Source of the DNA: an uncultured virus (IMG/VR IMGVR_UViG_3300025138_000029)
Taxonomy: Duplodnaviria; Heunggongvirae; Uroviricota; Caudoviricetes
IMG/VR virus record: IMGVR_UViG_3300025138_000029
Reading direction: 5' to 3' (one strand)
DNA: 64,000 nucleotides
Under the pieces are notes generated by a model. It worked only from the letters and a program-made list of their open reading frames with translations, was not told the DNA's origin and made no database searches. The position numbers and the translations under genes are program-made. Shown here piece after piece: positions 797 through 64,000 of this stretch. The number at the start of each line of letters is the position of its first letter. Position 1 is the first letter of the stretch.

Positions 797-797
797 T

Positions 798-10906: not shown

Positions 10907-13000
10907 ATGGCAAGTCAGAATATTAATAATTATAATTTTAATCGATACGATATACGTTTAGACAATAGTAGCTACTTTGACCTAACAATTGCTTCAGATG
11001 AAAGAGATTACGATGAGGAGGTGGTTTTCTCTAAAAAGTTAATCGCTGAAGATGATGGGGATAGGTTGCCTGTCTATATTGATTTATCATCAGATTTATC
11101 AAATCAAAAGATGAGATTACTGTGGAATGTTAATTACAGTGGTAATACTTTGGTATCTGAAAATTATTATAACCCTAAAAATGTTGATTTATTTTGTGAA
11201 TCCGCAACTACCTTATGTGATATAGGTTTAGTTGCAACAGATAATGGGTTATATGATAAAATGACTGGTGAGACAATAACTTTCACAATGGCCATAAATG
11301 ATTTTGAAAAATGGAACCCCCATTATTATGACCGTAGAATGAAATTCCATCCCGTTACTTCTTACGCAGATTGGCCAAATCATAGATTTTCAGGTAATTC
11401 TAAAACAATTTATAATATAGTTTCTAAAAACAATGGAGACTCTATCGGTTATTATAATGAATTATACGGAGGATTCTACCAAGGATTTTATAAGTTATTT
11501 GGGTATGACTATGAAGTATTTCCTGAAAGGGTTAATAAAGGTTGGACTATGGAGACAATCATTAAGCCAAGACAAAGAGAAGAGTTTAAGATACAACCTT
11601 CTGAAGTATATTTAAATGATGTTTATCCTGATAATGCAGGTATGTTTTTTTATTTTGGTACAAGAGCTGAAAATAAATATTACCATCCAGCTTCAGGTAA
11701 GACGGAATCTAAAAGAGGTAATCAAGGTTCGGACGGTTTAGGTTGTTACAGTTATAATTGTGGATTTAATATTGATGCTTCAGGTAAAAGTTCGACTGAA
11801 TGGTCATATAAAAGGGTAACTTCAGGTTTGACTGATTGTATACGAACATGTGCATGTTCCAATACTGGTGTAACAAATTCTAATTGTTTTAATGTATTTC
11901 CGACAACAGGTACTACTGTGAAACACGAGACAGGACCATGTGGTGCGTATGATACCACGGTCGTAAATCCGCCTATTGACCCAGGGGTTGACGCATTATC
12001 TAACGCAATGTCTATTAGATTATCAGGTGACCCTAAAAACCCTAAACTTTGTGTTAAGTATATTAAATTAACAGGAGACTGTGTAACAACAGGTAGTTGT
12101 GGAACCACAGGTTTAACGTATTCTTCAGGTTATTGTATTAATGAAATATGTTCAGTTAGGGGTATATATGATGATTGTGGATATGATTCTTTAGTCTGTT
12201 TAACTGCTAATACTGAGGAAAGATGGGTAATGTTTTCTGCCGTTTTTGAAAGGTATGAATTATTAGAGGATTGTGATTTAATAAATTGGGGTGGATTAGG
12301 TGATATTAGAGAAGTGGTATATCCGTCCGCCATAAATGGGGCGGCCTATAATTTAATAATGCCACCACAAACCCATGAAGGTCAGAAAAAAGAAAAAAAA
12401 GAAAGTATAATAGAATTAAATCGAAAATGGTTAAGAAATAAAGATAGGAGAAAAGGATTATTAAAATTATATGTTAATGGTTACTTATTTATGGTCATTG
12501 AAGATTTTGAAGAGATTATACCTCGTGAATTAAATACTCAAAAAGAAAAACAATTAGGTGTACCATTTAATATTAGTTGGGGTGGAGGAACTCAAGGACT
12601 TAGAGAAAGTCTAATGTTTAGTGCTTGTACTGCAACTGAAGGTCCTTATATACAAGACCCTGAAGATATGCCAAATCAAACCTTATCAGGTACTTCCTTA
12701 TCGGGATTAACAACTGATATTTTAATAGAACCTAATTTTGGAGGAACATTTATGGGTGGAATATCTCAATTTAGAATGTATACCGAACCATTATCGACCC
12801 CTCAAATTCAACATAATTATAGAGAGTCACGAGTAAGATATAATTTATACGATTTTTGGTGTAGTAATTGTTTTGATTGTTTGTTAGGTTGTTACTTTAA
12901 TTTTGATTTAGAAGAGGCCGCCTGTGATTTTGATTTTGTATCTAATGAAATAACTTGTGATTTTGGATTTAATATATCCGATAACAACCCTAATATTTAA
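10907..13000 (+). CDS. Cys-rich putative virion protein, possibly an interrupted LamG/concanavalin-like fold
   Basis: GWTMETIIKP, LKLYVNG, FMGGISQFRMYTEPLS..QIQHNY resemble LamG elements; many [ST]GxT motifs. Confidence 0.55.
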   Translation: MASQNINNYNFNRYDIRLDNSSYFDLTIASDERDYDEEVVFSKKLIAEDDGDRLPVYIDLSSDLSNQKMRLLWNVNYSGNTLVSENYYNPKNVDLFCESATTLCDIGLVATDNGLYDKMTGETITFTMAINDFEKWNPHYYDRRMKFHPVTSYADWPNHRFSGNSKTIYNIVSKNNGDSIGYYNELYGGFYQGFYKLFGYDYEVFPERVNKGWTMETIIKPRQREEFKIQPSEVYLNDVYPDNAGMFFYFGTRAENKYYHPASGKTESKRGNQGSDGLGCYSYNCGFNIDASGKSSTEWSYKRVTSGLTDCIRTCACSNTGVTNSNCFNVFPTTGTTVKHETGPCGAYDTTVVNPPIDPGVDALSNAMSIRLSGDPKNPKLCVKYIKLTGDCVTTGSCGTTGLTYSSGYCINEICSVRGIYDDCGYDSLVCLTANTEERWVMFSAVFERYELLEDCDLINWGGLGDIREVVYPSAINGAAYNLIMPPQTHEGQKKEKKESIIELNRKWLRNKDRRKGLLKLYVNGYLFMVIEDFEEIIPRELNTQKEKQLGVPFNISWGGGTQGLRESLMFSACTATEGPYIQDPEDMPNQTLSGTSLSGLTTDILIEPNFGGTFMGGISQFRMYTEPLSTPQIQHNYRESRVRYNLYDFWCSNCFDCLLGCYFNFDLEEAACDFDFVSNEITCDFGFNISDNNPNI

Positions 13001-13009
13001 TAATTAAAA

Positions 13010-13408
13010 ATGGAGTTTTTTATAAGAAAAAATAGTACATTACCAATAATAAAGGTACAAATTGTAAAAGATGGAAGAGTAGATTTTAGAGAATTTGATA
13101 ATCTAACTAAAGATTCGACTATAACTTTTAGTATGTGGAATGAAGAGACAAATGTTTATTATATTATGAATGAACCAGCATATACTATGGTTAAACCTGA
13201 TAGTGTTGGAACAGAGGAAGTGGAATATTATGTTTACTACCAATTAAGTTCCCATGAGACCAGACATATCGGTGGTTATGTAGGGGAATTTAAAATAAAA
13301 AATAGCCAAGGTGAAATTATATTACCAAGAAGGAAGGAACTTTTTATTAATATAACAGACTCTTTTAGTCGAGGAGACTTATGTTGTAAACCTCAGGGAG
13401 CAAACTAA
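13010..13408 (+). CDS. Putative structural adaptor (BppU N-terminal-like), paralog 1
   Basis: FFIRKNSTLP.I...ITFSM...YYVYY...T...G.Y.GEFKI. Confidence 0.55.
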   Translation: MEFFIRKNSTLPIIKVQIVKDGRVDFREFDNLTKDSTITFSMWNEETNVYYIMNEPAYTMVKPDSVGTEEVEYYVYYQLSSHETRHIGGYVGEFKIKNSQGEIILPRRKELFINITDSFSRGDLCCKPQGAN

Positions 13409-13429
13409 TATATCGTAATATTTATATGT

Positions 13430-13783
13430 ATGGAATTTTTTATAAAACAAAATAGTGAACTACCAATACTTAAAATGCAAGTAGTTAGAGATGGTCGTAC
13501 AGACGCATATAAGATATTTGATGCGGACTTGGATACGGCAACAATGAGGTTCTCAATGAAAAATGAAAAGAACGGTATACCAAAAATTTTAATGGAAAAC
13601 GCATATATAACTGAAAAATCACAACTTAACCCCACTTCGCCCTATGAATATTATATTTACTATAAGTGGAGTAAAAAAGATACTAGCGTTAAAGGAAGAT
13701 TTATTGGTGAGTTTCACATACATAATTCCATGGGTAAATTAATTGCACCAATAAGAGAAAATTTATATATAAACATAATATAA
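13430..13783 (+). CDS. Putative structural adaptor (BppU N-terminal-like), paralog 2
   Basis: FFIKQNSELP.L...MRFSM...YYIYYKW...DT...G.F.GEF. Confidence 0.55.
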   Translation: MEFFIKQNSELPILKMQVVRDGRTDAYKIFDADLDTATMRFSMKNEKNGIPKILMENAYITEKSQLNPTSPYEYYIYYKWSKKDTSVKGRFIGEFHIHNSMGKLIAPIRENLYINII

Positions 13784-13786
13784 GAT

Positions 13787-14239: not shown

Positions 14240-14243
14240 TAGT

Positions 14244-14272
14244 TTGACAATCTTATAATAGTTACTTATAAT
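14244..14272 (+). promoter_or_regulatory. Perfect sigma70-type promoter upstream of DNA polymerase
   Basis: TTGACA-N17-TATAAT. Confidence 0.8.
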
Positions 14273-14343
14273 TTGTTTAAGTGTTAAAGAGTAATCACGT
14301 CAATACGATGTGAGTAAATGTCTCAAACGTAAAAACAAATTAT

Positions 14344-17488: not shown

Positions 17489-17490
17489 AC

Positions 17491-18603: not shown

Positions 18604-18644
18604 ATATACGTTTTCTTAATAAATATTCGGAAAACTATAATTCT

Positions 18645-24451: not shown

Positions 24452-27400
24452 ATGGCGACATCTAACAAAGTATTCGTATCTCCGGGTGTTTACACATCAG
24501 AAAGAGATTTAAGTTTTGTAGCACAAAGTGTAGGTGTAACTACTCTTGGTTTAGTGGGTGAAACAATTTCGGGACCAGCGTTCGAGCCGATTTTCATCAC
24601 AAACTTTGACGAGTTCCAATCCTATTTTGGTGGTACAAATCCAACTAAATTCGTGAATACTCAGATACCTAAGTATGAGGCGGCTTATATAGCTAAATCG
24701 TATCTTCAACAATCAAATCAATTGTTTGTTACAAGAGTACTTGGACTATCGGGGTACGACGCGGGACCTTCATGGTCAATAAAAACTATCGGTAACTTAG
24801 ATAGTACAGGAACTACAGCAACATCTGTTTCGGGTCCTTTCACTATTGCATTCTCCGGTGTTTCAGGAACATCCACAAGCACGGCTATCACCAACTATGG
24901 TGGTTTACCAGCTAGTATTTTAGGTGTGATAAATCATCCTTATGAGACATATACGGGTGGAGAGTCGACTTTAGAGGGTGACTTCAAAAAATATTTTTAT
25001 CAAGAAATTGCTAATCCAGCAAATTCAGGTAGTACTTCATACTTTTGGGGAGCGGTAAGTGCTTCTACTTATAGTAGTATAACAGGAGCGTCATCGACAC
25101 CTAATTATACAGGTAATACAAATGTACTCGCTGTTAATAATGTACAGTTTGAAAATAACGTTTTAAATGCGTCAGTTAATGACCCATGGTATTACGCGTT
25201 ATTCACTGAAAACTCAGGAGTATATAATGGTACAGGTTTTGGTTTTGGTGTTACTACCTTAACTAATACAGGTGGATTAAATTACGAAGGAACTGCTGAA
25301 GTTTACATAACTAACTATACGGGTACACCTATGAGTGAATACCACGATTTAGTTGTGGGGACATTACGTTCAAGAGGTATTGATACATACACTACTGATG
25401 ATGGACCAGTTTACGAAGTGTCAGGTTTAACTGATGTGATGATTGACTGTACAGGAGCATTTTCAGCAATATCAACAAACCCATTTGCAACATTTGGTAT
25501 AAGTGGTTTAACTGCTGATAACGACACTTTCACATTTAATACATCATTTAATATTGCAAATTCTAATTACGTATCAAAGGTATTTGGTAAATCTAATTTT
25601 GCTAAACCTAAATCGGAAGTTCCATTATTCTTAGAAGAAGAGTATTACAACTTATTAAATACAGGTTATAGGTTAGGTAAAGTAAGAGGACTTGATTGTT
25701 CTTTAACTGCATTACCAAGTGCGAGAGGAGATGCTGGTACTAATACTAGTATTGGTTGGTATCTTGATAGATATCAAACACCTGAAACACCATATTTGGT
25801 TTCAGAATTAAGAGGTAATAAAGTTTATAATATGTTTAAATTTTTAACAGTCTCTGATGGTAATTCAGCAAATAAAGAAGTAAAAGTTTCCATAATGAAT
25901 ATTTCATTTAATAATGGAACATTTGACGTTGCGGTTCGTGACTTTTTTGATACAGATGCTAATCCTGTAATCTTAGAAAAATTTACAAATTGTACAATGG
26001 ATGTAAACCAAAACAGTTTTGTAGCTAAGAAGATAGGTACATCTAATGGTGATTTTGAACTAAGGTCAAGATTTATCATGTTAGAAATGAATGAAGATGC
26101 ACCTATGGATTCATTACCTTGTGGTTTCCGAGGATATGAAACAAGACAATACTCAGGAGTTAAATCACCTTTCTTAGAATATAAAACTAAATATGATACA
26201 CCAGGTGAAGTTATTTGGAATCCACCATTCGGTTCTGCAACAGGTACTGATAATGAAACAAGAAGTTCAGGAGATAGAGTTAGAAGAACTTTCTTAGGTG
26301 TTTCTAATACAGTTGGAATAGATTCAGATTTCTTCCAATATAAAGGAAAACAAAACCCTACTAACTTAGCTACTGCTACTGACTCACAACCGTGGTCTTA
26401 CCTTACTAAAGGTTACCACATGGATTCAGGAGCGACTGTCATCACAATATCATCTAATTATGTTACTTCGGGTGAAACAGCTTTCGAAGTTGGAGACGCA
26501 AGTTTTGATTCAGAACCACAAGAGGGTAGTCCTTATTACAGATTAAATGCACGTAAGTTCACTATAGCACCATCAGGAGGTTTCGATGGATGGGACATAT
26601 ATAGAGAATATAGAACTAATGGTGATAGATACCAATTAGGAGCGGCAGGATTTAGAAAAGGTGCAGCACCTTCAATCTCTTATCCTACGGCTACAGGTTG
26701 GGGGGCATTTAAACAAATTACGGGTCCTGACCAATTAACTTGGGCTAATACTGATTATTACGCTTACTTATGGGGTCAATATACCTTTAATAATCCTGAA
26801 TCAGTTAATATAAATGTTTTTGCAACACCAAACATTGATTATGTAAATAATTCAAACTTAGTTGAGTCTGCAATTGACATGGTAGAACAAGATAGAGCGG
26901 ATTCGGTTTATATTTGTACAACTCCTGATTATCAAATGTTTACACCAACATTAGGTGATTTTGATACTAACTTTATTTATCCTGAAGAAGCGGTAGATAA
27001 TTTAGAAGAAACAGGAATTGATTCAAACTATACCGCAACTTATTACCCATGGATTTTAACGAGAGATTCGGTAAATAATACTCAAATATATCTCCCACCA
27101 ACAGGTGAAGTTGTTAGAAACTTGGCATTAACAGATAATATCGCTTTCCCTTGGTTTGCAACTGCAGGTTATACAAGAGGATTAGTTAATTCTGTTAAAG
27201 CACGTAAAAAGTTAACACAAGAAGACAGAGATACACTATATCAAGGTAGATTAAATCCAATAGCAACCTTCTCTGATGTGGGTACAGTTATTTGGGGTAA
27301 TAAAACTTTACAAGTTAAGGAATCTGCACTTGATAGAATAAACGTAAGAAGATTGTTATTACAAGCTCGTAAATTAATTTCGGCAGTGGCTGTTAGGTTA

Positions 27401-27643
27401 TTGTTTGAACAAAATGACGAACAAGTAAGACAAGAATTCTTAGACTCAGTTAATCCAATCTTAGATAGTATTAGAAGAGATAGAGGTTTAATTGACTTTA
27501 GAGTGACAGTTTCTGGAACTCCTGAAGATTTAGACTCAAATACGTTGACAGGTAAAATTTACTTAAAACCTACAAGAGCACTTGAATTCATTGATATTGA
27601 ATTCTTAATTACACCTACAGGAGCATCTTTTGAAGATATTTAA
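24452..27643 (+). CDS. Contractile tail sheath protein with large insertions
   Basis: VSPGVYTSERD, YYPW, PWFATAGYTRG, WGNKTL, RINVRRLL, PTRALEFI. Confidence 0.95.
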   Translation: MATSNKVFVSPGVYTSERDLSFVAQSVGVTTLGLVGETISGPAFEPIFITNFDEFQSYFGGTNPTKFVNTQIPKYEAAYIAKSYLQQSNQLFVTRVLGLSGYDAGPSWSIKTIGNLDSTGTTATSVSGPFTIAFSGVSGTSTSTAITNYGGLPASILGVINHPYETYTGGESTLEGDFKKYFYQEIANPANSGSTSYFWGAVSASTYSSITGASSTPNYTGNTNVLAVNNVQFENNVLNASVNDPWYYALFTENSGVYNGTGFGFGVTTLTNTGGLNYEGTAEVYITNYTGTPMSEYHDLVVGTLRSRGIDTYTTDDGPVYEVSGLTDVMIDCTGAFSAISTNPFATFGISGLTADNDTFTFNTSFNIANSNYVSKVFGKSNFAKPKSEVPLFLEEEYYNLLNTGYRLGKVRGLDCSLTALPSARGDAGTNTSIGWYLDRYQTPETPYLVSELRGNKVYNMFKFLTVSDGNSANKEVKVSIMNISFNNGTFDVAVRDFFDTDANPVILEKFTNCTMDVNQNSFVAKKIGTSNGDFELRSRFIMLEMNEDAPMDSLPCGFRGYETRQYSGVKSPFLEYKTKYDTPGEVIWNPPFGSATGTDNETRSSGDRVRRTFLGVSNTVGIDSDFFQYKGKQNPTNLATATDSQPWSYLTKGYHMDSGATVITISSNYVTSGETAFEVGDASFDSEPQEGSPYYRLNARKFTIAPSGGFDGWDIYREYRTNGDRYQLGAAGFRKGAAPSISYPTATGWGAFKQITGPDQLTWANTDYYAYLWGQYTFNNPESVNINVFATPNIDYVNNSNLVESAIDMVEQDRADSVYICTTPDYQMFTPTLGDFDTNFIYPEEAVDNLEETGIDSNYTATYYPWILTRDSVNNTQIYLPPTGEVVRNLALTDNIAFPWFATAGYTRGLVNSVKARKKLTQEDRDTLYQGRLNPIATFSDVGTVIWGNKTLQVKESALDRINVRRLLLQARKLISAVAVRLLFEQNDEQVRQEFLDSVNPILDSIRRDRGLIDFRVTVSGTPEDLDSNTLTGKIYLKPTRALEFIDIEFLITPTGASFEDI

Positions 27644-32310: not shown

Positions 32311-32372
32311 ATCTACTAACTGTGGTTATATAAAATTATATATCCATCTATTTATCTAAAAAGAATATATAG

Positions 32373-37130: not shown

Positions 37131-37132
37131 TT

Positions 37133-37450
37133 ATGAGATACTGGAATAGATATACGGATTTTTTGGTTAACGGTCAACAGACTGTCGTGCCTTTTGTTAA
37201 TATACCATCTAAACCATCAGATAAAAGGTTTATTTTTAGAACGGGACGTAGTAGGTTAGATAAGATAAGTTATGAGTTTTATGAATCACCTTACTTTGGA
37301 TGGTTAATATTAGCCGCAAATCCTAAATATGGTGGTTTAGAGTCTAATATTCCTGATAACGCACTACTCTTTATTCCGTTTCCATTAACAAATTCTCTAC
37401 AGGATTATAAGGCGGCGGTAGAAAACCATTTCTTCTATTATGGCAGATAA
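37133..37450 (+). CDS. Baseplate wedge LysM-like protein (gp53-like)
   Basis: RLDKISYEFY...GWLILAANP...LFIP. Confidence 0.7.
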   Translation: MRYWNRYTDFLVNGQQTVVPFVNIPSKPSDKRFIFRTGRSRLDKISYEFYESPYFGWLILAANPKYGGLESNIPDNALLFIPFPLTNSLQDYKAAVENHFFYYGR

Positions 37451-55430: not shown

Positions 55431-58400
55431 ATGCCAAAATCGATTAGAATAAGAACAGAACCTGGTGTTGATAGAGACATTAATGTTAAAATTGACCAAG
55501 ATTTTGATTCCTTAGAAATTTTGTCTTTAAAATTAAGACAAGAAGACTTATATACACAGTTCTGCGCCGATTATGGGGTTGTTGTGGGAAGAGTAATAGC
55601 CAATGGGGGTTTAGGTATACCTAATGCTCATATATCAATTTTTATCCCTTTAGATGATGTTGATGAAAGTGACCCTATAATATCCACACTATACCCATAT
55701 AAAACCCCGACTACAAAGAATGAAGACGGGTATAGATATAATCTTCTACCATATGAAGATGAATACTACGGACATAACGGTACAGGTACATTTCCAACAG
55801 TTGACGATGTATTAACTCGTAAAGAGGTTTTACAAGTTTATGAAAAATACTATAAGTATTCGGTTAGAACTAATGACTCAGGTGACTTTATGATTGTCGG
55901 AGTGCCCTTAGGTAATCAAAAATTAGTTATGGATTTAGATTTATCTAACATGGGTGAGTTTTCACTTAGACCTTCAGATTTAATTAGAATGGGTCGTGGA
56001 GTACCTTCACAATTTAATGGTCAACTATTTAAAGATTCTGAAAATATTGATTCATTACCACAGATATTAAATGAAGTAAAAGACATTGATGTTTCATCAT
56101 TTTGGGGACAAGATGATATATGTGATGTAGGTATAACTAGAGTTGATTTTGATTTGAGTGACCAAGGAATAGAAATTACACCTCACTCAGTATTTATGGG
56201 TTCTTTGTTCTCCTCAAATGAGGATGACTATATAAAGGCCACTTGTAGACCTAAAAAAGATACAGGTAATTTATGTGATACTGTTGCGGGCCCTGGAGAG
56301 ATATTAGCCATAAGACAAACAATACAGGAAGATGAAAATGGTGACCCAGTATTAGAACAGTATCAATTAGAAGATGGGGGTAATGTTATTAACGATAATG
56401 GAGCGTGGTTAATTGACCTTCCAATGAATATGAATTATGTAACAACTAATGAGTTCGGAGAAAGAGTAACTTCTCCTGACCCTAGTGTTGGAATTCCCAC
56501 ACAAGCTAAGTATAGGTTTAAGATAAAATGGCAAAACGAAGCAGGATTACAAACTCAAATAATGAGGGCAAATTATTTAATTCCAAATATAAAAGAACAT
56601 TGGAATGGTAATCCTATATCTGGTATTCCATTTGATTTAAATAAATCGTATTCATTTTCATTAGATTGGTCGGATTATTACGATAAAGATGCCGCAATAA
56701 AATGTGAAGACACATTTTATAGTTTTGGTTATAATAAAGTCTACACTACAGCAGCACACATTGATAGATGGAAATATGGTGCAAATAGAGCTTCTCATTA
56801 TGGTATAAAAGAGATTCTTAATAGGGACTGTATGAGTGAAAATAATAGGTTTCCTGTAAATGATGGACAACGTAACTTTGATTTTTTATATTTTTTATTT
56901 AACATCCTACTCGGTGTTATTACCCCAACGGTTTTTGTTATTATCCCTATAATGCACGTATTAGCATTATTATATCCTATAGTAAGGCTTATTGTTAACC
57001 TTCTTGTAACCATAATTAATCCTATTTTATACTTAATTTGTAAAGCGGTTGCATTTTTAAGTAGAAAAGTTAAAAAAAGTGATTGTAAAAAAGACACAAT
57101 TAAAAAACTACCTAAAGAAAACCCATTTAAGAGATTAACTTTACCTATGATAACCTATCCTGACTGTGAAGCATGTTCATGTGATGATGTTAATTTACCC
57201 GATGCTGAAGATGAAACAATTACAAGTTTGGAATTAGAAATTGCAAATGCGAATCAGAGTAATTTAGCTGACTTCGTTAGTATAGGGGCTTATAATGATA
57301 TTGTATGTAGTACTAGCTCCGTCTCACCTGGAGGGGTAGTTCCTCCAACTATTAATATAAACTCGGAATGTTATGCATGTTATAATGGACAACCGAGTTA
57401 TGTTGCTGCACAATACAACCAACTTATCTTTTCAGGATACGACCCTGATATCCCACCACCATCAGAACCAGGAGAATTTAATCCACCTTTTACCCCACCT
57501 GCACAGTGGTCAAAGAGTCCATTTAGTTTACAAACACATAGTAGTGAATACCATTCAACATTTACCACAACCTTACCTCAGTCATTAAATTTAATGAATC
57601 AAAGAAGTAGATATTTTGATACTACAACACCTAATCGTATGTTAGTGGATATTGTAAATGACCAACTAAACCCTAATGGGGTTCCTAATACATCACCAAT
57701 TACACATGTAAAAAATAGGTACGAAGACATGCCGTTAGTTACTGTACTTGATGGTAATGTTAATTTAACCCCTGGTCAGTTATTAACATTTGTTGATGGA
57801 GAATTAATTGATGACCCTAACGTTAATAATACAGGAATGACCGTAAATCAATTTGGTTATCAGTCATTAACAGGTACCATGGTAAGTAATCCTTCCGCAT
57901 ACGTTACAAGACCATGTAGTTATATTGACGGTAACGGTACTCCACGAAATATAGATTTAGAATTATATTCACCTGTTCCAGGAGCGTCATACAATTTTAA
58001 AACGGGTATTGAATACTATCAGGTTATTGGTAGTATGGATGTTAGTGATGCAAGAGCTTACTTATCTGGTGTAACTGCAAATAGTAGTGATTCTATATTA
58101 TGGAAATACTTTTTAGATAAAGATTGTCAATATTTCTGTGACAGAGGTAATTCAAACTGGGCCGTTCCCATACAAGACCCTCTTGATTATTTTGAGGATG
58201 CAGACAATGTTAAAATATATTTTATAGCTAAAGGTGTGGACCCATACTCAGGAAGACAAAAAATAAAATATGATTTGAATAGACTATTTGGAGAACTATA
58301 TAACGCAAACCCTAACTTTATTTTCCAAGGAGATTATTTTCCTAACATACCAATACAAGAGGTTAGTAACGCTAATGGAGGTAATGGTGATGATGATACA

Positions 58401-60473
58401 CCCGCACCTCACTATGATATAGATTTACCTCCAGGTACAATACATTTTGATGATGGAATTAATGATAATACTGCATTATTTCATGGGTCTTATCTTTTTA
58501 CCCCTATTTCAAATTCAGGAACTACATTTCAATCATTTTTTACTAGAGGTTTTGCCTATTACTCTTCATTAGATTATCAATTTGGGACCACATTAACAAA
58601 TTTTGGTAGTAGTAATGGTGTCGAAGTAACTGGTAGTTTTCTTGACCCTTTAGTTGGTTATGATGTGATGTCTATTAGTACAACTCTTAGTGGACAAAGT
58701 AAAATAGAAGGAGCATCATACCAATGGACCGATACAAGTCCTCAAGCTAATTTAACTTCTGCGAGTAAAGTGTATACGATATCACCATCTTATTGGTTAT
58801 GGAACGCCGCAGGACTTGCACCTAAAATTAATATGAATGATGAGACTCGTTTAATTTTTAGGTCAGATAGATTACCAACATCATCGGTTAGGGACGAAGG
58901 GGCTTTAGCACCATATCAAGATTTCTGTTTACACTTAAATGACACATTTGTTTATTTTACTGTGACCGACACAGGTGTAAGTGAAGCAGTCTCACCTAAC
59001 ACTTCTGTCGGTTCTACAGATGGTTCAGGCGGAGCAGCAGATTATGGAGATGAACCACAACCAGGATTTATGGGAAATGGAATATTACAGAGTTTTGAAT
59101 GTTCAGGATTAAAAGTTTTAGAGTGTTATAATGGTACAGGTAGTAATTTTAGTGTAGACAATCCGTGTGACTTAGACGATAGAACTCAAGGGGGTTGTTA
59201 TGTGTTTGTTGATAACCCTTTAATAATTAGTATACCTAAAGATTTTAAATTTTTCTTTGAGTGGAGGACAAGGTTTAGATTTATGTTTGGAGCATGTAGA
59301 GGAGTTGTCGGACATATGTTCCAAAATAATTGGATAAATGGTACTTTATATATGCCATCATTTCAAAAGAAGACTTTTTATGATAGTAATAATGAAGTAA
59401 AACGTTACAAATATTGTGGTGACCCTTTCGTGGGTAATGGAGGGTTATTTGGAAATCAAAAACAAATGTGTGGACCATTATACTTTAATACTGATTCTAA
59501 CTCATTCTTTTATAGGTCCGCACCATATAATACTAATACGAATCAATTTAAACCACAAGGAGACTGTTATGGAGGTTTTTTTGGATTAAATAATATTGGT
59601 TCAAATGACGGAAATATATGGCAACCAACAACAATTATGGATTTGGGACCTAAAACAGATTTCCTAAAAGAAGTATTACTTACACCTGAATTCCAAGGAT
59701 ATATAATGGATGAGATTGAATCAACTTCATATCAAGATATATCAGGATTATTAAACTTATTTATAATTTCAAGATTAGTTGACGCTAACTTTTTAGAACA
59801 ACTATTAGGGGTGGGTGACGCATCAATACAACAATTATTTTCTAGAGACCCTGGACTTGGTTTAGTTAATAGATTTTTTGATTCAAGAGTTGATGGGGAT
59901 TATGCGCAGGCATGTTCTATCAATACAGAATTTGGTGTATTACCTTATCTTGCTGGAAATTATGAAGACGAAGTTGCAGTAGGAGACAGTTTATTTGGTG
60001 TATGGTTTACAGGAAGCACCGTGAGTCCTTATAACACTGTAGGTACAACAGTTGCTGATAGAAGAATTGTTGGCCCTGGAGAATTAACATTTTCTGAAGA
60101 CCCATTATTAGTTAGTAATTTTAATTATATTGGGTCACAAACAGTTCCATTTTATACTTGGGAATTTGCTGGTGGAAATATGTTTGGTACTGAGGAAAAT
60201 ACGTGGAAAACAAATACTTGTCAAACGGGTACATATCAAGATGAAAAATTTGACGGAGCCAATCAGTATGCTAAACCGACCACAGGTTTAGGTACAGGAT
60301 TTATTTTTAATAGACCAGTCAATGTATATCCTGGTAGTGTACCTACGGATAATGGTAATGATGGTTATAGGGTTGGGTCACCATTTCAATTCTATTTTGG
60401 ATTAAAAAGAGGTAAAAGTGCGATGAATTTGTTCATAACTAAATTTATATTTAATAGAGATTTAAATGGGTAA
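55431..60473 (+). CDS. Large putative virion protein with N-terminal beta-sandwich and an internal hydrophobic segment
   Basis: 1680 aa; GRV....GIPNAHISI, TNDSGDFMIVGVPLG; about 60 aa hydrophobic stretch. Confidence 0.6.
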   Translation: MPKSIRIRTEPGVDRDINVKIDQDFDSLEILSLKLRQEDLYTQFCADYGVVVGRVIANGGLGIPNAHISIFIPLDDVDESDPIISTLYPYKTPTTKNEDGYRYNLLPYEDEYYGHNGTGTFPTVDDVLTRKEVLQVYEKYYKYSVRTNDSGDFMIVGVPLGNQKLVMDLDLSNMGEFSLRPSDLIRMGRGVPSQFNGQLFKDSENIDSLPQILNEVKDIDVSSFWGQDDICDVGITRVDFDLSDQGIEITPHSVFMGSLFSSNEDDYIKATCRPKKDTGNLCDTVAGPGEILAIRQTIQEDENGDPVLEQYQLEDGGNVINDNGAWLIDLPMNMNYVTTNEFGERVTSPDPSVGIPTQAKYRFKIKWQNEAGLQTQIMRANYLIPNIKEHWNGNPISGIPFDLNKSYSFSLDWSDYYDKDAAIKCEDTFYSFGYNKVYTTAAHIDRWKYGANRASHYGIKEILNRDCMSENNRFPVNDGQRNFDFLYFLFNILLGVITPTVFVIIPIMHVLALLYPIVRLIVNLLVTIINPILYLICKAVAFLSRKVKKSDCKKDTIKKLPKENPFKRLTLPMITYPDCEACSCDDVNLPDAEDETITSLELEIANANQSNLADFVSIGAYNDIVCSTSSVSPGGVVPPTININSECYACYNGQPSYVAAQYNQLIFSGYDPDIPPPSEPGEFNPPFTPPAQWSKSPFSLQTHSSEYHSTFTTTLPQSLNLMNQRSRYFDTTTPNRMLVDIVNDQLNPNGVPNTSPITHVKNRYEDMPLVTVLDGNVNLTPGQLLTFVDGELIDDPNVNNTGMTVNQFGYQSLTGTMVSNPSAYVTRPCSYIDGNGTPRNIDLELYSPVPGASYNFKTGIEYYQVIGSMDVSDARAYLSGVTANSSDSILWKYFLDKDCQYFCDRGNSNWAVPIQDPLDYFEDADNVKIYFIAKGVDPYSGRQKIKYDLNRLFGELYNANPNFIFQGDYFPNIPIQEVSNANGGNGDDDTPAPHYDIDLPPGTIHFDDGINDNTALFHGSYLFTPISNSGTTFQSFFTRGFAYYSSLDYQFGTTLTNFGSSNGVEVTGSFLDPLVGYDVMSISTTLSGQSKIEGASYQWTDTSPQANLTSASKVYTISPSYWLWNAAGLAPKINMNDETRLIFRSDRLPTSSVRDEGALAPYQDFCLHLNDTFVYFTVTDTGVSEAVSPNTSVGSTDGSGGAADYGDEPQPGFMGNGILQSFECSGLKVLECYNGTGSNFSVDNPCDLDDRTQGGCYVFVDNPLIISIPKDFKFFFEWRTRFRFMFGACRGVVGHMFQNNWINGTLYMPSFQKKTFYDSNNEVKRYKYCGDPFVGNGGLFGNQKQMCGPLYFNTDSNSFFYRSAPYNTNTNQFKPQGDCYGGFFGLNNIGSNDGNIWQPTTIMDLGPKTDFLKEVLLTPEFQGYIMDEIESTSYQDISGLLNLFIISRLVDANFLEQLLGVGDASIQQLFSRDPGLGLVNRFFDSRVDGDYAQACSINTEFGVLPYLAGNYEDEVAVGDSLFGVWFTGSTVSPYNTVGTTVADRRIVGPGELTFSEDPLLVSNFNYIGSQTVPFYTWEFAGGNMFGTEENTWKTNTCQTGTYQDEKFDGANQYAKPTTGLGTGFIFNRPVNVYPGSVPTDNGNDGYRVGSPFQFYFGLKRGKSAMNLFITKFIFNRDLNG

Positions 60474-62214
60474 TCAAAAAAATAATCAAAGTATTAGAAT
60501 AGTTAGGGGTTCTGACCGTTATGCGGGCGCACCTGATACGGATTTATCTATTCAGATACCATTAGAAAATTCTAAAAAAAGTATTATTGAGGGAGATAGA
60601 AATGTACTAATTAATTTAGAAGAAAGATTTGACCATGAAAGACAGATTTCAACAAAGTTTAGAATAGCCGGTAAAATAGTAAATTTATTTGATAATACGG
60701 TATCAGGAAGATGTTCTAATTATGCTCCCTTTGAAGAAGAATTGTATTATATAGACCCAACACAATCATTAGTAGCGGCTCAAGGAAACGTCGCTAACGC
60801 GGTTTGGACAGGGTACCCTCCTTATGATGAATTTAATTTTTTTAGAACATCAGGAGTGCCAGGTCATGTAGATTATGATAGTAAAAGTGCATCAACCTAT
60901 AATTGGTCAGTGTATTTAAGTTACTCTCATAAAAATGACTATAATCAGTCTATGAAATATACTGATGATGATACTAACAATAGTTTAACTTTTAATGTGT
61001 CTGACGGTATCCCATATTCAATTAAGAATCGTACAGTAAATGGAAAAAGAATGATTAGTTTTTATTGTGGATTTAAACATAACATAAAGGAAGGTGATTA
61101 TGTTTACTTGCAAACACCTGTAAATGGTAAAAATTTATTAGAAGTTTATAGTTTAGGAGACCAATCATATGGTAATGAAGATAAGATTCTTAATGTTTAT
61201 AACTATGGGTATACAGGTAATAGTATTAGTGACGGAGCTATGGGAACATTAAAAAGAGTTATTAACCCTAGCAATTCTGGAGAAACTATGTCAGAATACT
61301 ATGTAAGAAAACATAAGACATTAACTGAAGTAAAAAATGTAGATTTAACCCGAATGGGGTTTGAACAAAATAATTTTCCTGTAGAAAAAAAATTAGAGTA
61401 CTCCGCACTTACGCCAAATCAAACAACAAGGATATCAGTAAAAGATGGTAGAGGTTCGTTTGGTTTATCATTTGATAAAGATATAGATATTATATCACTA
61501 ATGGATAATCTTGATAGACCTGTGACAGAATTATTCGTTACGATAGTGAACAAAGGTTATATGGGATTTTTCAATCACGGTGGAACAGGACCCCCTAATA
61601 AAGGGTTAGAAGTTGGGTGGTCATTTAATTTTAGAAAGAGCATGATTGATACTTGGTGGTCTAAGTTAAATCTACAGAATAAAGATAATATAACTACAGA
61701 CTATTATGATAAACCGGGTGATAATAATTTAAATATAAGATTTTACTATAATAAAGATTTACCGATAGGAACAGAAATTAAAGGAGATATTTGTGAATGG
61801 AATAAATTCGACCAAAAAGAAACTATTCTATCAAAGATATCTCATAAATATTCTTTTAATCCTGGTGTAATAACAACATCAGGAAATGTTAATTTACCCG
61901 ATGGATACACATATAACCCACATCATTCAGTAAAACTAAGAGTTTATTCGGACTATATTGAAACGGGAGATAGAGAAGCTGTAAGTGGTGTTCCTGACTA
62001 TTCTTTCTTTTCAAATTTTGAGGGACAGTGGAGATGGAGAGATATATACACTTATGGGTATATAGACACCGATGGTAATGGAGTTAATTACCCATTTTTA
62101 AATGGGGAACATTATCCTTTTGCGGATGTGCTATTTTTACAGACTCCCTTAATGAAAAACAATAACGTCTTTAATGACATAATCTTTGACCCAATAACTG
62201 ACGATTGTGAATAA
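60466..62214 (+). CDS. Putative structural protein
   Basis: 582 aa; coupled in the baseplate operon. Confidence 0.6.
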   Translation: MGNQKNNQSIRIVRGSDRYAGAPDTDLSIQIPLENSKKSIIEGDRNVLINLEERFDHERQISTKFRIAGKIVNLFDNTVSGRCSNYAPFEEELYYIDPTQSLVAAQGNVANAVWTGYPPYDEFNFFRTSGVPGHVDYDSKSASTYNWSVYLSYSHKNDYNQSMKYTDDDTNNSLTFNVSDGIPYSIKNRTVNGKRMISFYCGFKHNIKEGDYVYLQTPVNGKNLLEVYSLGDQSYGNEDKILNVYNYGYTGNSISDGAMGTLKRVINPSNSGETMSEYYVRKHKTLTEVKNVDLTRMGFEQNNFPVEKKLEYSALTPNQTTRISVKDGRGSFGLSFDKDIDIISLMDNLDRPVTELFVTIVNKGYMGFFNHGGTGPPNKGLEVGWSFNFRKSMIDTWWSKLNLQNKDNITTDYYDKPGDNNLNIRFYYNKDLPIGTEIKGDICEWNKFDQKETILSKISHKYSFNPGVITTSGNVNLPDGYTYNPHHSVKLRVYSDYIETGDREAVSGVPDYSFFSNFEGQWRWRDIYTYGYIDTDGNGVNYPFLNGEHYPFADVLFLQTPLMKNNNVFNDIIFDPITDDCE

Positions 62215-63067
62215 ATTTAGATTTACCGTAAACGATAAAGACACACAATTTAATCTACCTATTGAAATTGATTTCGATAATTTAGGTAGAGAAGATTTAA
62301 TTAAACAATATGAAGATGATGTCATAGAACAAGTGATTAATCCTGTTGAAGATTTTGAAACGACACGTTACTCACATAATAAGTGGTTAAATGTTAATAA
62401 CATACCTAAAAACAGTACTACTTACGAATTTTCTTTTTTTAATCGTACAGTAGATGTCGATACAACTACACCGGCTAATAGTAATTTATGGGTTTCTAGT
62501 TATACTTATGTCGACCCTTCAGTCTATCAAAATTATAGTGGTATTACATTTACTAATAAAGAACTTTATTATTACGCCAATTCATTTAAGAGAAGTTTCT
62601 TTAAACTAGATTTTTATGATACTACTGACGCTCAAAATCAACAAATTTATTTCACAGTAGTTATACCGACACAACAAGGTGAAAAAACACAAGTTGATAT
62701 CGGTACACCTACAGTACCAAAACCAGTCGATATTAGAAAACCATTATTTAATTTAGACTATGTTGGAGATAAAGAGGGGTATTTTATTTATTGGTTAAAA
62801 AGTCGTGAATATATAGATTTAAATACTTTTTATATGTCGGCTAAATTTTTTAATGCTAAAATAGGACAATTTGTTAGAATGACAAATAGACCACAATCTA
62901 ATATATCTGAAAAATTTAATTTTGATAAGTCTGAATACTTTTATTACAAAGTTAACTTAGATGTTGATAATTATGAATATGAGGTTTTTGAAGAATATGG
63001 GGTAGGAAATAGAGTAGGTCAATTAAATAATGGTATAAAATGGTACGAATACGTTAATCCACAATAA
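62207..63067 (+). CDS. Putative structural protein
   Basis: 286 aa; GTG start overlapping the upstream gene. Confidence 0.6.
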   Translation: MNKFRFTVNDKDTQFNLPIEIDFDNLGREDLIKQYEDDVIEQVINPVEDFETTRYSHNKWLNVNNIPKNSTTYEFSFFNRTVDVDTTTPANSNLWVSSYTYVDPSVYQNYSGITFTNKELYYYANSFKRSFFKLDFYDTTDAQNQQIYFTVVIPTQQGEKTQVDIGTPTVPKPVDIRKPLFNLDYVGDKEGYFIYWLKSREYIDLNTFYMSAKFFNAKIGQFVRMTNRPQSNISEKFNFDKSEYFYYKVNLDVDNYEYEVFEEYGVGNRVGQLNNGIKWYEYVNPQ

Positions 63068-64000
63068 TGGAAGAAAAATATTACATAAAAGTTTCTCCTG
63101 AATCAATAAAAGGTGACGTTATTACTGAGTATTTCAGTGGTAATACTTTTGGTGTTTATACAGGTATGACTCAAGTATTGAGTGGAGGTACAGGAGGTAG
63201 TAGTTTACTTACGGGTTTAACCATACCTTTAGTGTTTAGACAAACTTATGAAAATTATGGGTTTTATACGCCATTTGACGGTTTCGCGTTACAAAAAGAT
63301 GTGGTTAGTAATTTTATAACCTCAGGAGACCCTGGAAACCAATACGTAATTAGAATTTTTAATACTTCTGACCAATATAAAGGGTTTTTAAAGTTAGCTA
63401 ATTATACTGTAAATTGGGGAGACGGTAATTCAGAGCCATTTACCACAAACTCTCCTCAATATTTGTCACATACTTATCCCAACGTTCCTACGAGTTATAC
63501 AATAACCTTAACTCAAAATAATCCATGGGGACAGACTAATATAGAAAAGAAAGTTTACTTACCGACAACGGGAGTTACGATAAATAATCCTTATGGTAAT
63601 ATTACGTTTACACCTCAAGGTGGAAGTTGGTCAGGTATACCAATAAATTATAATTATATTTTTACCGGGGACAGTTCAAATACCGTACAAAGTCAGACTT
63701 CTAATAATTTTACAACAGTACCATTTATAGTTAGTGGTTTTACCTCATCTAGATTATCTGAACTTAAATTATATGGTACAGTTCAATATGATATAACTAC
63801 TACAGTAGTTAAAGGGGGACAACCATACGGTAAAGTTAATCAAATAACGAGTGGTTATACTTCGTACACAATTAATGATGTTGATTACTATGATTACCCT
63901 GATGGTACTACATTATATATCGCCAATTCCTCAGGTTTAACAAGTTATGACCTTGTTGCCTCAGCAATAACTAAACAAGAAGTATTAATTAACGTAGTTG
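63067..64000 (+). CDS. Putative structural protein with PKD-like domain (runs off the window; not in the ORF track)
   Basis: Own translation MEEKYYIKVSPE...YTVNWGDG...SHTY; open to the end of the window. Confidence 0.75.
   Translation, partial: MEEKYYIKVSPESIKGDVITEYFSGNTFGVYTGMTQVLSGGTGGSSLLTGLTIPLVFRQTYENYGFYTPFDGFALQKDVVSNFITSGDPGNQYVIRIFNTSDQYKGFLKLANYTVNWGDGNSEPFTTNSPQYLSHTYPNVPTSYTITLTQNNPWGQTNIEKKVYLPTTGVTINNPYGNITFTPQGGSWSGIPINYNYIFTGDSSNTVQSQTSNNFTTVPFIVSGFTSSRLSELKLYGTVQYDITTTVVKGGQPYGKVNQITSGYTSYTINDVDYYDYPDGTTLYIANSSGLTSYDLVASAITKQEVLINVV

What the first reader, a model, noticed from the sequence alone, without database searches (positions are those of the whole stretch)
10907..64000. 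[S/T]-G-x-T motif enriched in outer virion proteins: candidate glycosylation sequon
Counted by eye: 8 in the 697 aa ORF at 10907 (SGNT, TGET, SGKT, SGLT, TGVT, TGTT, TGLT, SGLT); 7 in the sheath (TGTT, SGST, TGNT, SGLT x2, SGAT, SGET), none in its conserved C-terminal core; 8 in about 311 aa of the ORF at 63067 (SGNT, TGMT, SGGT, TGLT, TGVT, SGFT, SGYT, SGLT); more in the terminator and baseplate proteins. I found none in the 943 aa PolB or in the tube protein. The copies are dispersed rather than tandem, as expected for a modification site. Inference: phage GTs at 1-8.3 kb glycosylate this motif to give a glycan-coated virion. It differs from the Bacteroidota D-[S/T]-[A/I/L/V/M/T] O-glycosylation motif.
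Basis: partly seen in the sequence, partly recalled or inferred. Interest (0 to 1): 0.85.

Follow-up and report, generated by a model that had tools for sequence, protein, structure and literature searches.

The report
Ser/Thr-Gly-x-Thr motif in phage particle proteins
A four-residue pattern (Ser/Thr-Gly-any-Thr) really is several times too frequent in some outer particle proteins of this large marine phage, but whether it is a sugar-attachment tag or simply a recurring structural turn cannot be decided from sequence alone.

Summary
[ST]-G-x-T occurs 8, 7 and 8 times in ORF 10907, the sheath and ORF 63067, as reported. Local-composition shuffles expect about 1, 2.5 and 1. SGxT is the top pattern of 8000 a-b-x-c patterns over all 49 window ORFs.

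The motif needs both hydroxyl positions. It is not a DNA-level effect, and the three proteins are not homologous. It recurs in a 297-kb syntenic relative. There, blocks I drew as structural have 118 sites against 55.5 expected, and all other ORFs have 12 against 21.

There is no enrichment in T4, Microcystis phage Mel-JY01, Escherichia phage ESCO13 or 400 kb of a Maribacter genome. Flavobacterium phage immuto shows a mild excess.

The glycosylation reading is neither shown nor excluded. The glycosyltransferases are conserved, but the double GT-A enzyme looks like a polysaccharide synthase (chondroitin synthase, E 7e-26). No relative without glycosyltransferases exists to compare. ESCO13 has distant homologues of the GT-B enzyme and no excess. 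Both structure models failed.

I lean to a structural strand-end motif (0.45) over an O-glycosylation sequon (0.30). Earlier notes of this scan report similar motifs in other T4-like phages (e1-6056712 and others).

The parts
10907..13000 (+). ORF 10907 (697 aa), no Pfam or PHROG family. Language-model features and its sequence suggest a ConA/LamG-like jelly roll with a Cys-rich insert. It has 8 [ST]-G-x-T sites at residues 78, 120, 263, 306, 320, 334, 401 and 599.
   Evidence: Counts. Shuffles p = 5e-5 and 2e-4. No family. LamG lead. 27 related loci at 46-100% identity whose full-length homologues carry 3-21 sites. TATAAATA lies 35 nt upstream at 10865, but that hexamer-type count equals chance overall.
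24452..27643 (+). Tail sheath (1063 aa). All 7 sites lie in the lineage-specific insertion, residues 107-773 (about nt 24770-26770). The C-terminal core 774-1062 aligns to T4 gp18 residues 362-653.
   Evidence: In the insertion, 7 observed against 2.03 locally expected (p = 0.003). The ends expect only 0.19 + 0.23. 3 of the 7 sites are shared with the G004 orthologue.
63067..63999 (+). ORF 63067 (311 aa in the window, 360 aa full length in L045), downstream of the gp25/gp6-like baseplate genes. It has a PKD-like middle domain and 8 sites, four of them within residues 24-52.
   Evidence: TGLT 49-52, T168/G169/T171 and S289/G290/T292 are invariant in 11 homologues. Motif S/T positions are invariant as hydroxyl in 12 of 16, against 10 of 60 other S/T. 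PKD hits lie just below the Pfam cut-off in the G004 orthologue. The model is confident only for residues 80-185.
55431..60473 (+). Large baseplate-region protein (1680 aa), 4 sites.
   Evidence: Shuffle p = 0.049, and 0.07-0.08 with local shuffles. 0 sites shared with the G004 orthologue.
30376..44015 (+). Three large tail or baseplate-region ORFs (30376-32310, 32373-37130, 37440-44015) with 1, 2 and 3 sites, not individually enriched. A small ORF at 37133-37450 has 0.
   Evidence: p = 0.49, 0.39, 0.15.
60466..63067 (+). Two ORFs between the 1680-aa protein and ORF 63067 (582 and 286 aa), 1 site each.
4378..5778 (-). Two-domain GT-A glycosyltransferase (PF13712 + PF00535), conserved across the lineage and resembling a polysaccharide synthase.
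   Evidence: Pfam and NCBIfam. K4 chondroitin synthase 2z86/2z87, E 7e-26, residues 155-415 aligned to 293-560. Matched in 21 of 27 related loci (48-96% identity); the 6 without a match are shorter loci.
7090..8298 (-). GT-B-like glycosyltransferase (PHROG 7162), conserved across the lineage, beside the dUTPase and a PolB-exonuclease-like gene.
   Evidence: Matched in 23 of 27 related loci (66-86% identity); the 4 without a match are shorter loci. 69% identity in G004. Distant homologues in Phapecoctavirus and in a 735-kb phage. No solved relative.
2..4233 (-). Variable sugar block: UDP-glucose dehydrogenase (2-850, cut by the window edge), GT2 (798-1556), UDP-GlcNAc 2-epimerase WecB (2034-3032) and three unknown ORFs.
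   Evidence: Only the dehydrogenase is kept in G004 (85% identity); the GT2 and the epimerase have no homologue there.

Best explanation
The window comes from a jumbo T4-like myovirus that probably infects marine Flavobacteriaceae. In this phage lineage the pattern hydrophobic-[ST]-[G, sometimes A]-x-[T, sometimes S] has been multiplied and kept by selection. It sits in the lineage-specific, probably outward-facing, beta-rich parts of particle proteins: the sheath insertion, the capsid-protein insertion, baseplate-periphery and fibre-like proteins, and the LamG-like ORF 10907.

The most likely reading is a structural one. A beta-strand ends on a hydrophobic residue, a hydroxyl residue plus a small residue make the turn or cap, and a Thr starts the next element. 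This would be used again and again in fibrous or beta-sandwich modules, with no sugar attached.

Shown: the excess, its specificity, its conservation, and its restriction to virion modules. Inferred: the strand-turn geometry, the outward location, and the host.
For: - **Flanking pattern.** Position -1 is hydrophobic in 49-57% of sites against a 33% background, and -2 is depleted of hydrophobic residues in G004. That is the pattern of a strand end.
- **Orthologue states.** Where an orthologue lacks the strict motif, it often has a conservative near-motif at the same column (TANT, SATT, SGTS, SGES). So the place is kept as [ST]-[GA]-x-[ST].
- **Part of larger structural elements.** Four sites spaced 7-10 residues apart lie at the N-terminus of ORF 63067. 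A 25-30-residue internal repeat is bracketed by TGGT and TGFT in a 624-aa G004 protein, and several sites fall inside a SprB repeat match. The one capsid-protein site conserved in 4 of 4 relatives aligns to N-G-S-T of T4 gp23.
- **Same tendency in T4.** T4 fibre and capsid proteins show it weakly: gp37 6 against 2.08, gp36 2 against 0.26, gp24 3 against 0.24. T4 particle proteins are not known to be glycosylated; that statement is recalled, not from a call.
- **Enzyme resemblance.** The lineage's conserved double GT-A enzyme resembles polysaccharide synthases rather than known protein O-glycosyltransferases.
Against: - **No shared ancestry.** The three window proteins share no detectable homology, so one inherited domain does not explain the excess.
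- **Not a general property.** The excess is absent from T4 overall (19 against 16.2), from Mel-JY01 and ESCO13, and from 315 Maribacter ORFs including a 6189-aa SprB adhesin (74 against 68.0). It is therefore not a general feature of beta-rich phage or Flavobacteriaceae proteins.
- **Glycine is replaceable.** Gly is often replaced by Ala and is no better conserved than other glycines. The hydroxyl positions of ORF 63067 are far better conserved than other S/T. That is not what a turn needing a left-handed Gly would show.
- **Site turnover.** ORF 10907 keeps its site number while sites move: 2 columns shared, 8 sites in the window and 6 in G004.
- **No three-dimensional check.** Both models failed.
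Confidence: 0.45

Rival explanations
1. The motif is an O-glycosylation sequon. A soluble phage glycosyltransferase (GT7090 as the priming enzyme, perhaps extended by the chondroitin-synthase-like GT4378 using UDP-glucuronate) modifies Ser/Thr in [ST]-G-x-T on assembled or folding particle proteins. The result is a glycan-coated virion.
For: - **Specific and coupled motif.** The observed/expected ratio is 6.8 in the three proteins, 2.0 in other tail proteins and 1.1 in the rest. The reversed, shifted or half motifs are not enriched.
- **Location.** The motif occurs in non-homologous proteins. It is confined to lineage-specific insertions of the sheath and capsid protein.
- **Hydroxyl conservation.** Hydroxyl positions are strongly conserved in ORF 63067.
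- **Number kept while sites move.** This holds in ORF 10907 and ORF 37440.
- **G004 split.** Blocks I drew as structural have 118 against 55.5, and the other 237 ORFs have 12 against 21.0.
- **Enzymes conserved.** GT4378, GT7090 and the UDP-glucose dehydrogenase are conserved in the lineage.
- **Elaborate glycan toolkit in G004.** It carries aminotransferase, acetyl-, methyl-, pyruvyl- and carbamoyl-transferases and mucin-like Pro/Thr-repeat proteins.
- **Precedents.** Mycobacteriophage virion glycosylation is known to me only from a passage in PMC12619734 and from reference lists; the paper itself is not held. SgtA adds O-GlcNAc to Thr in the GPT repeats of BclA3, which contain T-G-P-T (passages of PMC7157674).
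Against: - **No chemistry.** No sugar has been shown on any of these proteins.
- **No protein-binding domain.** None (such as the TPR of SgtA) was found in the window's glycosyltransferases.
- **Polymerase resemblance.** GT4378's nearest solved relatives are polysaccharide polymerases.
- **GT7090 context.** It lies among nucleotide-metabolism genes. GT-B enzymes of RB69 and DLP3 glycosylate DNA (PMC13326640, abstract and Table 1 passage).
- **ESCO13.** It has four glycosyltransferases, including GT7090 homologues, and no excess (27 against 25.4).
- **Unlike mycobacteriophages.** The tube protein has no sites and the capsid-protein C-terminus has none.
- **Depletion not replicated.** The depletion in non-structural G004 ORFs is not seen in the window (3 against 3.4).
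Confidence: 0.3
2. The motif serves another function that needs hydroxyl-small-x-hydroxyl. Candidates are a different modification (for example phosphorylation), a docking site for a decoration, cement or chaperone protein, or an anion- or glycan-binding nest on the particle surface.
For: The same facts as above for specificity, conservation of the hydroxyls and restriction to virion modules. T-G-x-T is part of a phosphate-binding loop in flavodoxins; I saw this only as a term count of 2 in one search listing.
Against: No kinase or other modifying enzyme was recognised in the window. No partner was identified. Nothing specific points this way.
Confidence: 0.12
3. The motif is a chance or composition artefact, picked after the fact.
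For: Control phage proteomes also have top patterns at p near 1e-6 to 1e-7.
Against: Local shuffles. Rank 1 of 8000. Replication in the G004 orthologues and in further G004 proteins. Elevated counts in full-length homologues: 3-21 per ORF 10907 homologue and 5-10 per ORF 63067 homologue. Diverse codons.
Confidence: 0.03

Closest known systems
SgtA-BclA3 of Clostridioides difficile (and BclA-type collagen-like spore glycoproteins)
   Same: A soluble GT-A enzyme adds O-GlcNAc to Thr in Gly-Pro-Thr repeats. Consecutive triplets read T-G-P-T, which literally matches [ST]-G-x-T. Ser is also accepted in vitro (passages of PMC7157674).
   Different: Here the sites are dispersed in globular or fibrous beta proteins, not in collagen triplets. 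G-x-T without a preceding S/T is not enriched (0.8-1.1). No GT-A + TPR enzyme was found in the window. The relative's collagen-like fibres are mostly G-x-K, with about 14% G-x-T.
Virion O-glycosylation of mycobacteriophages (Freeman et al. 2023)
   Same: Phage-encoded glycosyltransferases modify particle proteins. I know this only from a passage in PMC12619734 and from reference lists.
   Different: According to that passage, the glycans there sit at the C-termini of capsid and tail-tube subunits. Here the tube has 0 sites and the capsid-protein C-terminus has none. No short sequon is reported in what I saw. The original paper could not be read.
ST-turn / ST-motif (Ser/Thr side-chain capping of main-chain NH at turns and strand ends)
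   Same: A hydroxyl residue followed by a small residue right after a strand-like hydrophobic position. The definition of the ST-turn is recalled, not from a call.
   Different: ST-turns are ubiquitous and would not by themselves give a 7-fold, lineage-specific excess. The geometry could not be checked here.
E. coli K4 chondroitin synthase and other two-domain glycosaminoglycan synthases (for GT4378)
   Same: Two GT-A domains in one chain. E 7e-26 to 2z86/2z87, with heparosan synthase also hit. A UDP-glucose dehydrogenase is encoded nearby. Chlorovirus hyaluronan synthesis uses a similar gene set; that is recalled, not from a call.
   Different: 466 aa against 686 aa. Activity, acceptor and product are unknown. 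In G004 the N-terminal domain is instead fused to a GT4 and a pyruvyl-transferase domain.
Bacteroidota general O-glycosylation motif D-[ST]-[AILVMT]
   Same: The probable host phylum.
   Different: It is a different motif, and I recall the system as periplasmic. It is not enriched here: 10 against 7.6, 32 against 31.3 and 28 against 24.9.

Membership tests
Protein O-glycosylation sequon read by a phage enzyme | Glycan found on the motif Ser/Thr | not testable with these tools
   Needs mass spectrometry of particles or of co-expressed protein.
Protein O-glycosylation sequon read by a phage enzyme | Motif enriched beyond composition, and specifically in particle proteins | tested here: met
Protein O-glycosylation sequon read by a phage enzyme | Motif density follows presence of the enzyme across phages | tested here: inconclusive
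   GT4378 is matched in 21 and GT7090 in 23 of 27 related loci; the loci without a match are shorter. ESCO13 has GT7090 homologues and no excess. Mel-JY01 and immuto lack GT7090 but have other glycosyltransferases, with none and a mild excess respectively.
Protein O-glycosylation sequon read by a phage enzyme | Acceptor hydroxyls exposed on the particle surface | tested here: inconclusive
   Sites lie in the sheath and capsid-protein insertions. The models have pLDDT 40.6 and 29.7.
SgtA-type O-GlcNAc transferase system | GT-A catalytic domain fused to TPR repeats, with an acceptor made of G-x-T collagen triplets | tested here: not met
   No TPR in the window's glycosyltransferases. Sites are not in collagen triplets. 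[^ST]-G-x-T is not enriched.
Mycobacteriophage-type virion glycosylation | Glycans at the C-termini of capsid and tail-tube subunits | tested here: not met
   The tube has 0 sites. Capsid-protein sites lie only in the internal insertion. The feature is taken from a passage in PMC12619734.
Bacteroidota D-[ST]-[AILVMT] O-glycosylation | That motif enriched in the target proteins | tested here: not met
   observed is close to the local expectation in all three protein sets.
Proteoglycan-type Ser-Gly-x-Gly attachment site | [ST]-G-x-G enriched | tested here: not met
   2 against 3.6, 7 against 6.4, 2 against 4.2.
Structural strand-end/turn motif (ST-turn-like) | Preceded by a strand-like hydrophobic pattern, with conservative substitutions at the same alignment column | tested here: met
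Structural strand-end/turn motif (ST-turn-like) | A common local three-dimensional geometry at the sites | not testable with these tools
Two-domain glycosaminoglycan/polysaccharide synthase (GT4378) | Two GT-A domains, similarity to K4CP, and a UDP-glucuronate supply | tested here: met
   Polymerase activity was not tested.

The most novel reading that the evidence does not exclude
[ST]-G-x-T is a short sequon for phage-encoded O-glycosylation of particle proteins in a clade of jumbo T4-like phages of marine Flavobacteriaceae. GT7090 would prime the hydroxyl and the chondroitin-synthase-like GT4378 would extend a glucuronate-containing chain. The capsid, sheath, baseplate periphery and fibres would then carry a variable glycan coat, a phage 'proteoglycan'. 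The Pro/Thr mucin-like proteins of relatives would be further acceptors.
Probability: 0.2. Interest if true: 0.85.

Novelty: new variant of a known kind. Interest (0 to 1): 0.5.

Why it matters
If the motif is a sequon, it would be a short, defined address for sugar attachment on a tailed-phage particle outside the actinobacteriophages. It would make glycan shielding of marine phage particles predictable from sequence, with consequences for host recognition, grazing, stickiness and aggregation. If it is structural, it is a lineage-specific building habit of fibre and decoration modules, of limited interest. It would also be a warning that S/T/G-rich motifs beside glycosyltransferase clusters should not be read as sequons without chemistry. 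The distinction is directly testable with a few proteins and one mass-spectrometry experiment.

Tried and rejected
- **Structure mapping.** AlphaFold2 on the ORF 63067 family (11 sequences) gave pLDDT 40.6, with only residues 80-185 usable. On the ORF 10907 family (15 sequences) it gave 29.7.
- **Solved relatives.** None for ORF 10907 or ORF 63067 or for GT7090.
- **DNA-level explanation.** Rejected, because the codons are diverse.
- **Shared-domain explanation.** Rejected for the three window proteins: blastp finds nothing at E <= 1.
- **General Flavobacteriaceae or SprB feature.** Rejected: Maribacter 74 against 68.0, and its SprB giant 16 against 14.
- **General T4-like virion feature.** Rejected as the main cause.
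- **Known sequons.** D[ST][AILVMT], N-x-[ST] and S-G-x-G are not enriched.
- **DNA hydroxymethylation route.** The lineage's ThyA homologue scores as a true thymidylate synthase and the dUTPase as a true dUTPase. That gives no positive sign of base hypermodification, but DNA glycosylation is not excluded (PMC13326640).
- **T4-type late promoter TATAAATA.** 21 matches against 19.8 expected, so it is not usable as evidence.
- **Literature.** Searches for SGXT/TGXT as a named motif found nothing relevant. Freeman et al. 2023 is not held. A Phapecoctavirus glycosyltransferase search was uninformative.
- **Whole genome of the window.** Not held.
- **Earlier notes for this genome.** None.

Full report
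**What the window is.** The 64-kb window (GC about 31%) carries T4-type genes. These are a sheath, tube and gp27-like hub; gp25- and gp6-like baseplate proteins; gp32, UvsX, a DnaB-like helicase and class I ribonucleotide reductase; and a family-B polymerase.

At its left end is a sugar block on the minus strand. It holds a UDP-glucose dehydrogenase, a GT2, a WecB epimerase, a two-domain GT-A enzyme (4378-5778) and a GT-B-like enzyme (7090-8298). A dUTPase and an exonuclease gene lie between the last two.

The window is fully syntenic with a 297-kb record rated 99% complete (G004), so the phage is a jumbo myovirus. It shares gene order and 25-44% identical core proteins with Flavobacterium phage immuto. 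The bacterial relatives of its ribonucleotide reductase kept by the scan (the best 80 of 299, 62-68% identity) are mostly marine Flavobacteriaceae, with some Patescibacteria. A Flavobacteriaceae host is therefore an inference, not a finding.

**The observation.** There are 8 sites in ORF 10907, 7 in the sheath and 8 in ORF 63067. PolB and the tube have none. In all there are 39 sites in 49 ORFs.

- Shuffling each protein gives expectations of 0.58, 1.86 and 0.94 (p = 5e-5, 0.0027, 5e-5).
- Shuffling only within 15-60-residue blocks raises the expectations to about 1.0, 2.5 and 1.0. ORF 10907 and ORF 63067 stay at p = 2e-4 and the sheath at 0.005-0.017.
- Of all 8000 a-b-x-c patterns, SGxT is first over the whole window (23 against 6.5, p = 3.7e-7) and TGxT is sixth.

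**Anatomy of the motif.** The excess needs both ends of the motif.

| Pattern | Three proteins | 11 other tail/baseplate proteins | Remaining 35 ORFs |
|---|---|---|---|
| [ST]-G-x-T | 6.8-fold | 2.0-fold | 1.1-fold |

In the three proteins, [^ST]-G-x-T (0.8), [ST]-G-x-[^ST] (1.0), the reversed pattern (0.9) and the pattern with one more spacer (0.9) are flat. [ST]-G-x-S and [ST]-A-x-T are about 3.3-fold.

Codons at each position are diverse, so the signal is at the protein level. The three proteins are not detectably related to each other. Position -1 is hydrophobic in about half of the sites (background 33%), and -2 is depleted of hydrophobic residues in G004. Many sites read like strand-x-strand-[ST]-G-x-T. 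Known sequons are not enriched: D-[ST]-[AILVMT], N-x-[ST] and S-G-x-G.

**Where the sites sit.**

- *Sheath.* All 7 sites are in the insertion, residues 107-773 (7 against 2.03). The C-terminal core aligns to T4 gp18 residues 362-653.
- *Capsid protein.* In the capsid proteins of four relatives, every site lies in the variable internal insertion. One site (G-Y-[ST]-G-T-T) is conserved in 4 of 4 and aligns to N-G-S-T of T4 gp23. The others differ between relatives.
- *ORF 63067.* It follows the baseplate genes and has a PKD-like middle domain. Four sites lie within residues 24-52.
- *ORF 10907.* It has no family and only a weak ConA/LamG lead. In G004 its orthologue sits next to two large Pro/Thr-rich proteins, one with a LamG domain. 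That it is a particle protein is therefore plausible but not shown.

**Selection.** Full-length homologues of ORF 10907 (46-100% identity) carry 3-21 sites. Those of ORF 63067 (40-100% identity) carry 5-10.

In the ORF 63067 family, three sites are invariant in 11 sequences. The hydroxyl positions are invariant as a class in 12 of 16, against 10 of 60 for other S/T (p = 2e-5). The motif glycines are no better conserved than other glycines. In the ORF 10907 family the motif residues are no better conserved than others.

Between the window and G004 the number of shared sites varies.

| Protein | Sites shared with G004 | Window sites | G004 sites |
|---|---|---|---|
| ORF 63067 | 6 | 8 | 6 |
| Sheath | 3 | 7 | 5 |
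| ORF 10907 | 2 | 8 | 6 |
| ORF 37440 | 0 | 3 | 6 |

Many non-shared places hold near-motifs such as SATT, TANT or SGTS.

**Replication and controls.** The ORFs of G004 and of the control genomes are my own greedy calls of at least 60-80 aa.

*G004.* Excluding three collagen-like fibre proteins, 310 ORFs hold 130 sites against 76.5 +/- 9.1 from local shuffles. The excess comes from about ten proteins:

- the capsid protein (4 against 0.53);
- the orthologues of ORF 10907 (6 against 0.75) and ORF 63067 (6 against 0.94);
- unknown proteins of 735, 489, 519, 979 and 624 aa;
- a 1884-aa SprB-repeat protein (22 against 6.3).

By blocks that I drew from the annotation, partly after seeing the result, structural blocks have 118 against 55.5. 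The other 237 ORFs have 12 against 21.0. That depletion is not seen in the window (3 against 3.4).

*Controls.*

| Control | Observed | Expected |
|---|---|---|
| T4, 49 proteins | 19 | 16.2 |
| Mel-JY01, whole genome | 40 | 50.7 |
| ESCO13, whole genome | 27 | 25.4 |
| immuto, first 160,000 of 160,366 bases | 89 | 54.9 +/- 7.9 |
| Maribacter, 400 kb (315 ORFs) | 74 | 68.0 +/- 8.3 |

In T4 only gp24, gp36 and gp37 are mildly high. Mel-JY01 is the closest cultured sheath relative. In immuto the excess is diffuse and TGxT ranks 2 of 8000. The Maribacter sample includes its 6189-aa SprB adhesin (16 against 14).

So the strong excess is a property of this phage lineage. It is not a property of T4-like particles, of beta-rich adhesins or of the host family. 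A caution applies: every control proteome also has some top pattern at p near 1e-6 to 1e-7.

**The enzymes.** GT7090 has a match in 23 and GT4378 in 21 of the 27 related loci. The loci without a match are shorter or run off their contig. In G004 the two enzymes are 69% and 63% identical to the window's, the latter over half of the protein. The UDP-glucose dehydrogenase is 85% identical. The GT2 and the epimerase are absent there.

GT4378's best solved relative is E. coli K4 chondroitin synthase (E 7e-26), with heparosan synthase also hit. Together with a UDP-glucuronate supply, this points to polysaccharide synthesis. GT7090 has no solved relative. Its distant homologues lie in tandem next to the primase/helicase gene in ESCO13.

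The lineage's ThyA homologue and the dUTPase score as the ordinary enzymes. DNA glycosylation by GT-B enzymes with phage UDP-sugar genes is nevertheless documented for RB69 and DLP3 (PMC13326640; abstract and a Table 1 passage read).

G004's sugar block also has aminotransferase, acetyl-, methyl- and pyruvyl-transferase domains and a GT-D-like protein. A carbamoyltransferase lies elsewhere in the genome. G004 also has a 2499-aa protein with about 2000 residues of mucin-like Pro/Thr repeats, and five further PT-rich proteins. The window has none. This makes protein or particle glycosylation in the clade more plausible in general. It also offers other acceptors than [ST]-G-x-T.

**Weighing.**

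*For a structural motif:*
- the strand-like flank and the conservative near-motifs at the same columns;
- membership of some sites in repeats and in a SprB repeat;
- the T4 gp23 counterpart of the conserved capsid site, and the weak T4 fibre signal;
- the polysaccharide-synthase look of the conserved enzyme.

*For a sequon:*
- the coupling of two hydroxyls with a small residue;
- the occurrence in unrelated proteins and only in lineage-specific, probably outer parts;
- the better conservation of the hydroxyls than of the glycine;
- the site turnover with a kept number;
- the lineage restriction and the conserved enzymes.

The closest experimentally shown acceptor that literally contains the pattern is the GPT repeat of BclA3, glycosylated by SgtA (PMC7157674, passages read). 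The defining GT-A + TPR architecture and the collagen context are not met here.

Mycobacteriophage virion glycosylation is known to me only through a passage in PMC12619734 and through reference lists. Its C-terminal location on capsid and tube is not matched here.

I give 0.45 to the structural reading, 0.30 to the sequon, 0.12 to another hydroxyl-dependent function and 0.03 to chance.

**Earlier notes of this scan.** A word search shows that first readers and agents reported similar motifs in other uncultured T4-like phages. One is an [S/T]-[G/A]-x-T pattern in another jumbo T4-like phage (e1-6056712). Several concern G-x-T motifs and cite SgtA-BclA3. These are unchecked AI notes and not independent evidence. 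One of them led me to the SgtA paper. Here G-x-T alone is not enriched unless S/T precedes it.

Noticed in passing
G004 (IMG/VR record behind L022), 89222-96721 minus strand; also 87662-89140, 111822-115148, 115276-120930, 174232-177585, 177640-182664: A 2499-aa protein with about 2000 residues of mucin-like (V/P)-T-P-T-x-(S/T) repeats (Thr 33%, Pro 14.5%) between Cys-rich ends, plus five more Pro/Thr-rich large proteins in the structural region. These look like classic O-glycosylation-type linkers. Nothing comparable is in the window.
   Followed up: partly
G004 187-200 kb and 100530-102101: An elaborate glycan toolkit: an 824-aa fusion of GT-A (PF13712), GT4 and a polysaccharide pyruvyl transferase; a TylF-like methyltransferase; a DegT aminotransferase; a PglD-like acetyltransferase; a GT-D-like protein; a UDP-glucose dehydrogenase; and a NodU-type carbamoyltransferase. 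The accessory genes differ from those of the window (GT2 and WecB), so the glycan probably varies between relatives.
   Followed up: partly
window 4378-5778 (-): The two-domain GT-A enzyme is most like E. coli K4 chondroitin synthase and heparosan synthase (E 7e-26 and 3e-8). With the UDP-glucose dehydrogenase at 2-850, the phage may make a glycosaminoglycan-like polymer.
   Followed up: partly
window 18645-20207 (-): A 520-aa protein with a complete Fe/Mn superoxide dismutase (residues 47-236) followed by about 280 residues of unknown function. It is conserved at 60% identity in G004.
   Followed up: no
window 13010-13408 and 13430-13783 (+): Two adjacent small paralogous ORFs (46% identical, E 3e-31) between ORF 10907 and PolB. 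G004 has one copy.
   Followed up: no
window 6392-7093 (-) and 14344-17175 (+): A separate PolB-exonuclease-like protein (233 aa) is encoded in addition to the 943-aa PolB, which has its own exonuclease domain.
   Followed up: no
L027 10001-12355; L026 10001-16039; L017 10001-12784: ORF 10907 homologues vary in architecture. One carries a roughly 100-residue insert whose sequence looks to me like a proprotein-convertase P-domain; that is my reading of the alignment and was not tested. Others are extended to 928 and 2013 aa.
   Followed up: no
G004 30629-43677 (-): Three collagen-like tail-fibre proteins (1315-1619 aa) with a C-terminal Peptidase_S74 chaperone domain. Their triplets are about 40% G-x-K and about 14% G-x-T.
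   Followed up: partly
L060 (T4) gene 24, L061 genes 36 and 37: Within T4, only gp24 (3 against 0.24), gp36 (2 against 0.26) and gp37 (6 against 2.08) have more [ST]-G-x-T than composition predicts.
   Followed up: no
L089 (ESCO13 105097-108241): Four tandem glycosyltransferase genes, two of them distant homologues of window GT7090, lie between the endolysin and the primase/helicase gene of this Phapecoctavirus. Their target seems undescribed in the papers found.
   Followed up: no
window 10098-10904 (-): A 268-aa protein with a DUF3721 domain at residues 24-57, divergently transcribed from ORF 10907.
   Followed up: no
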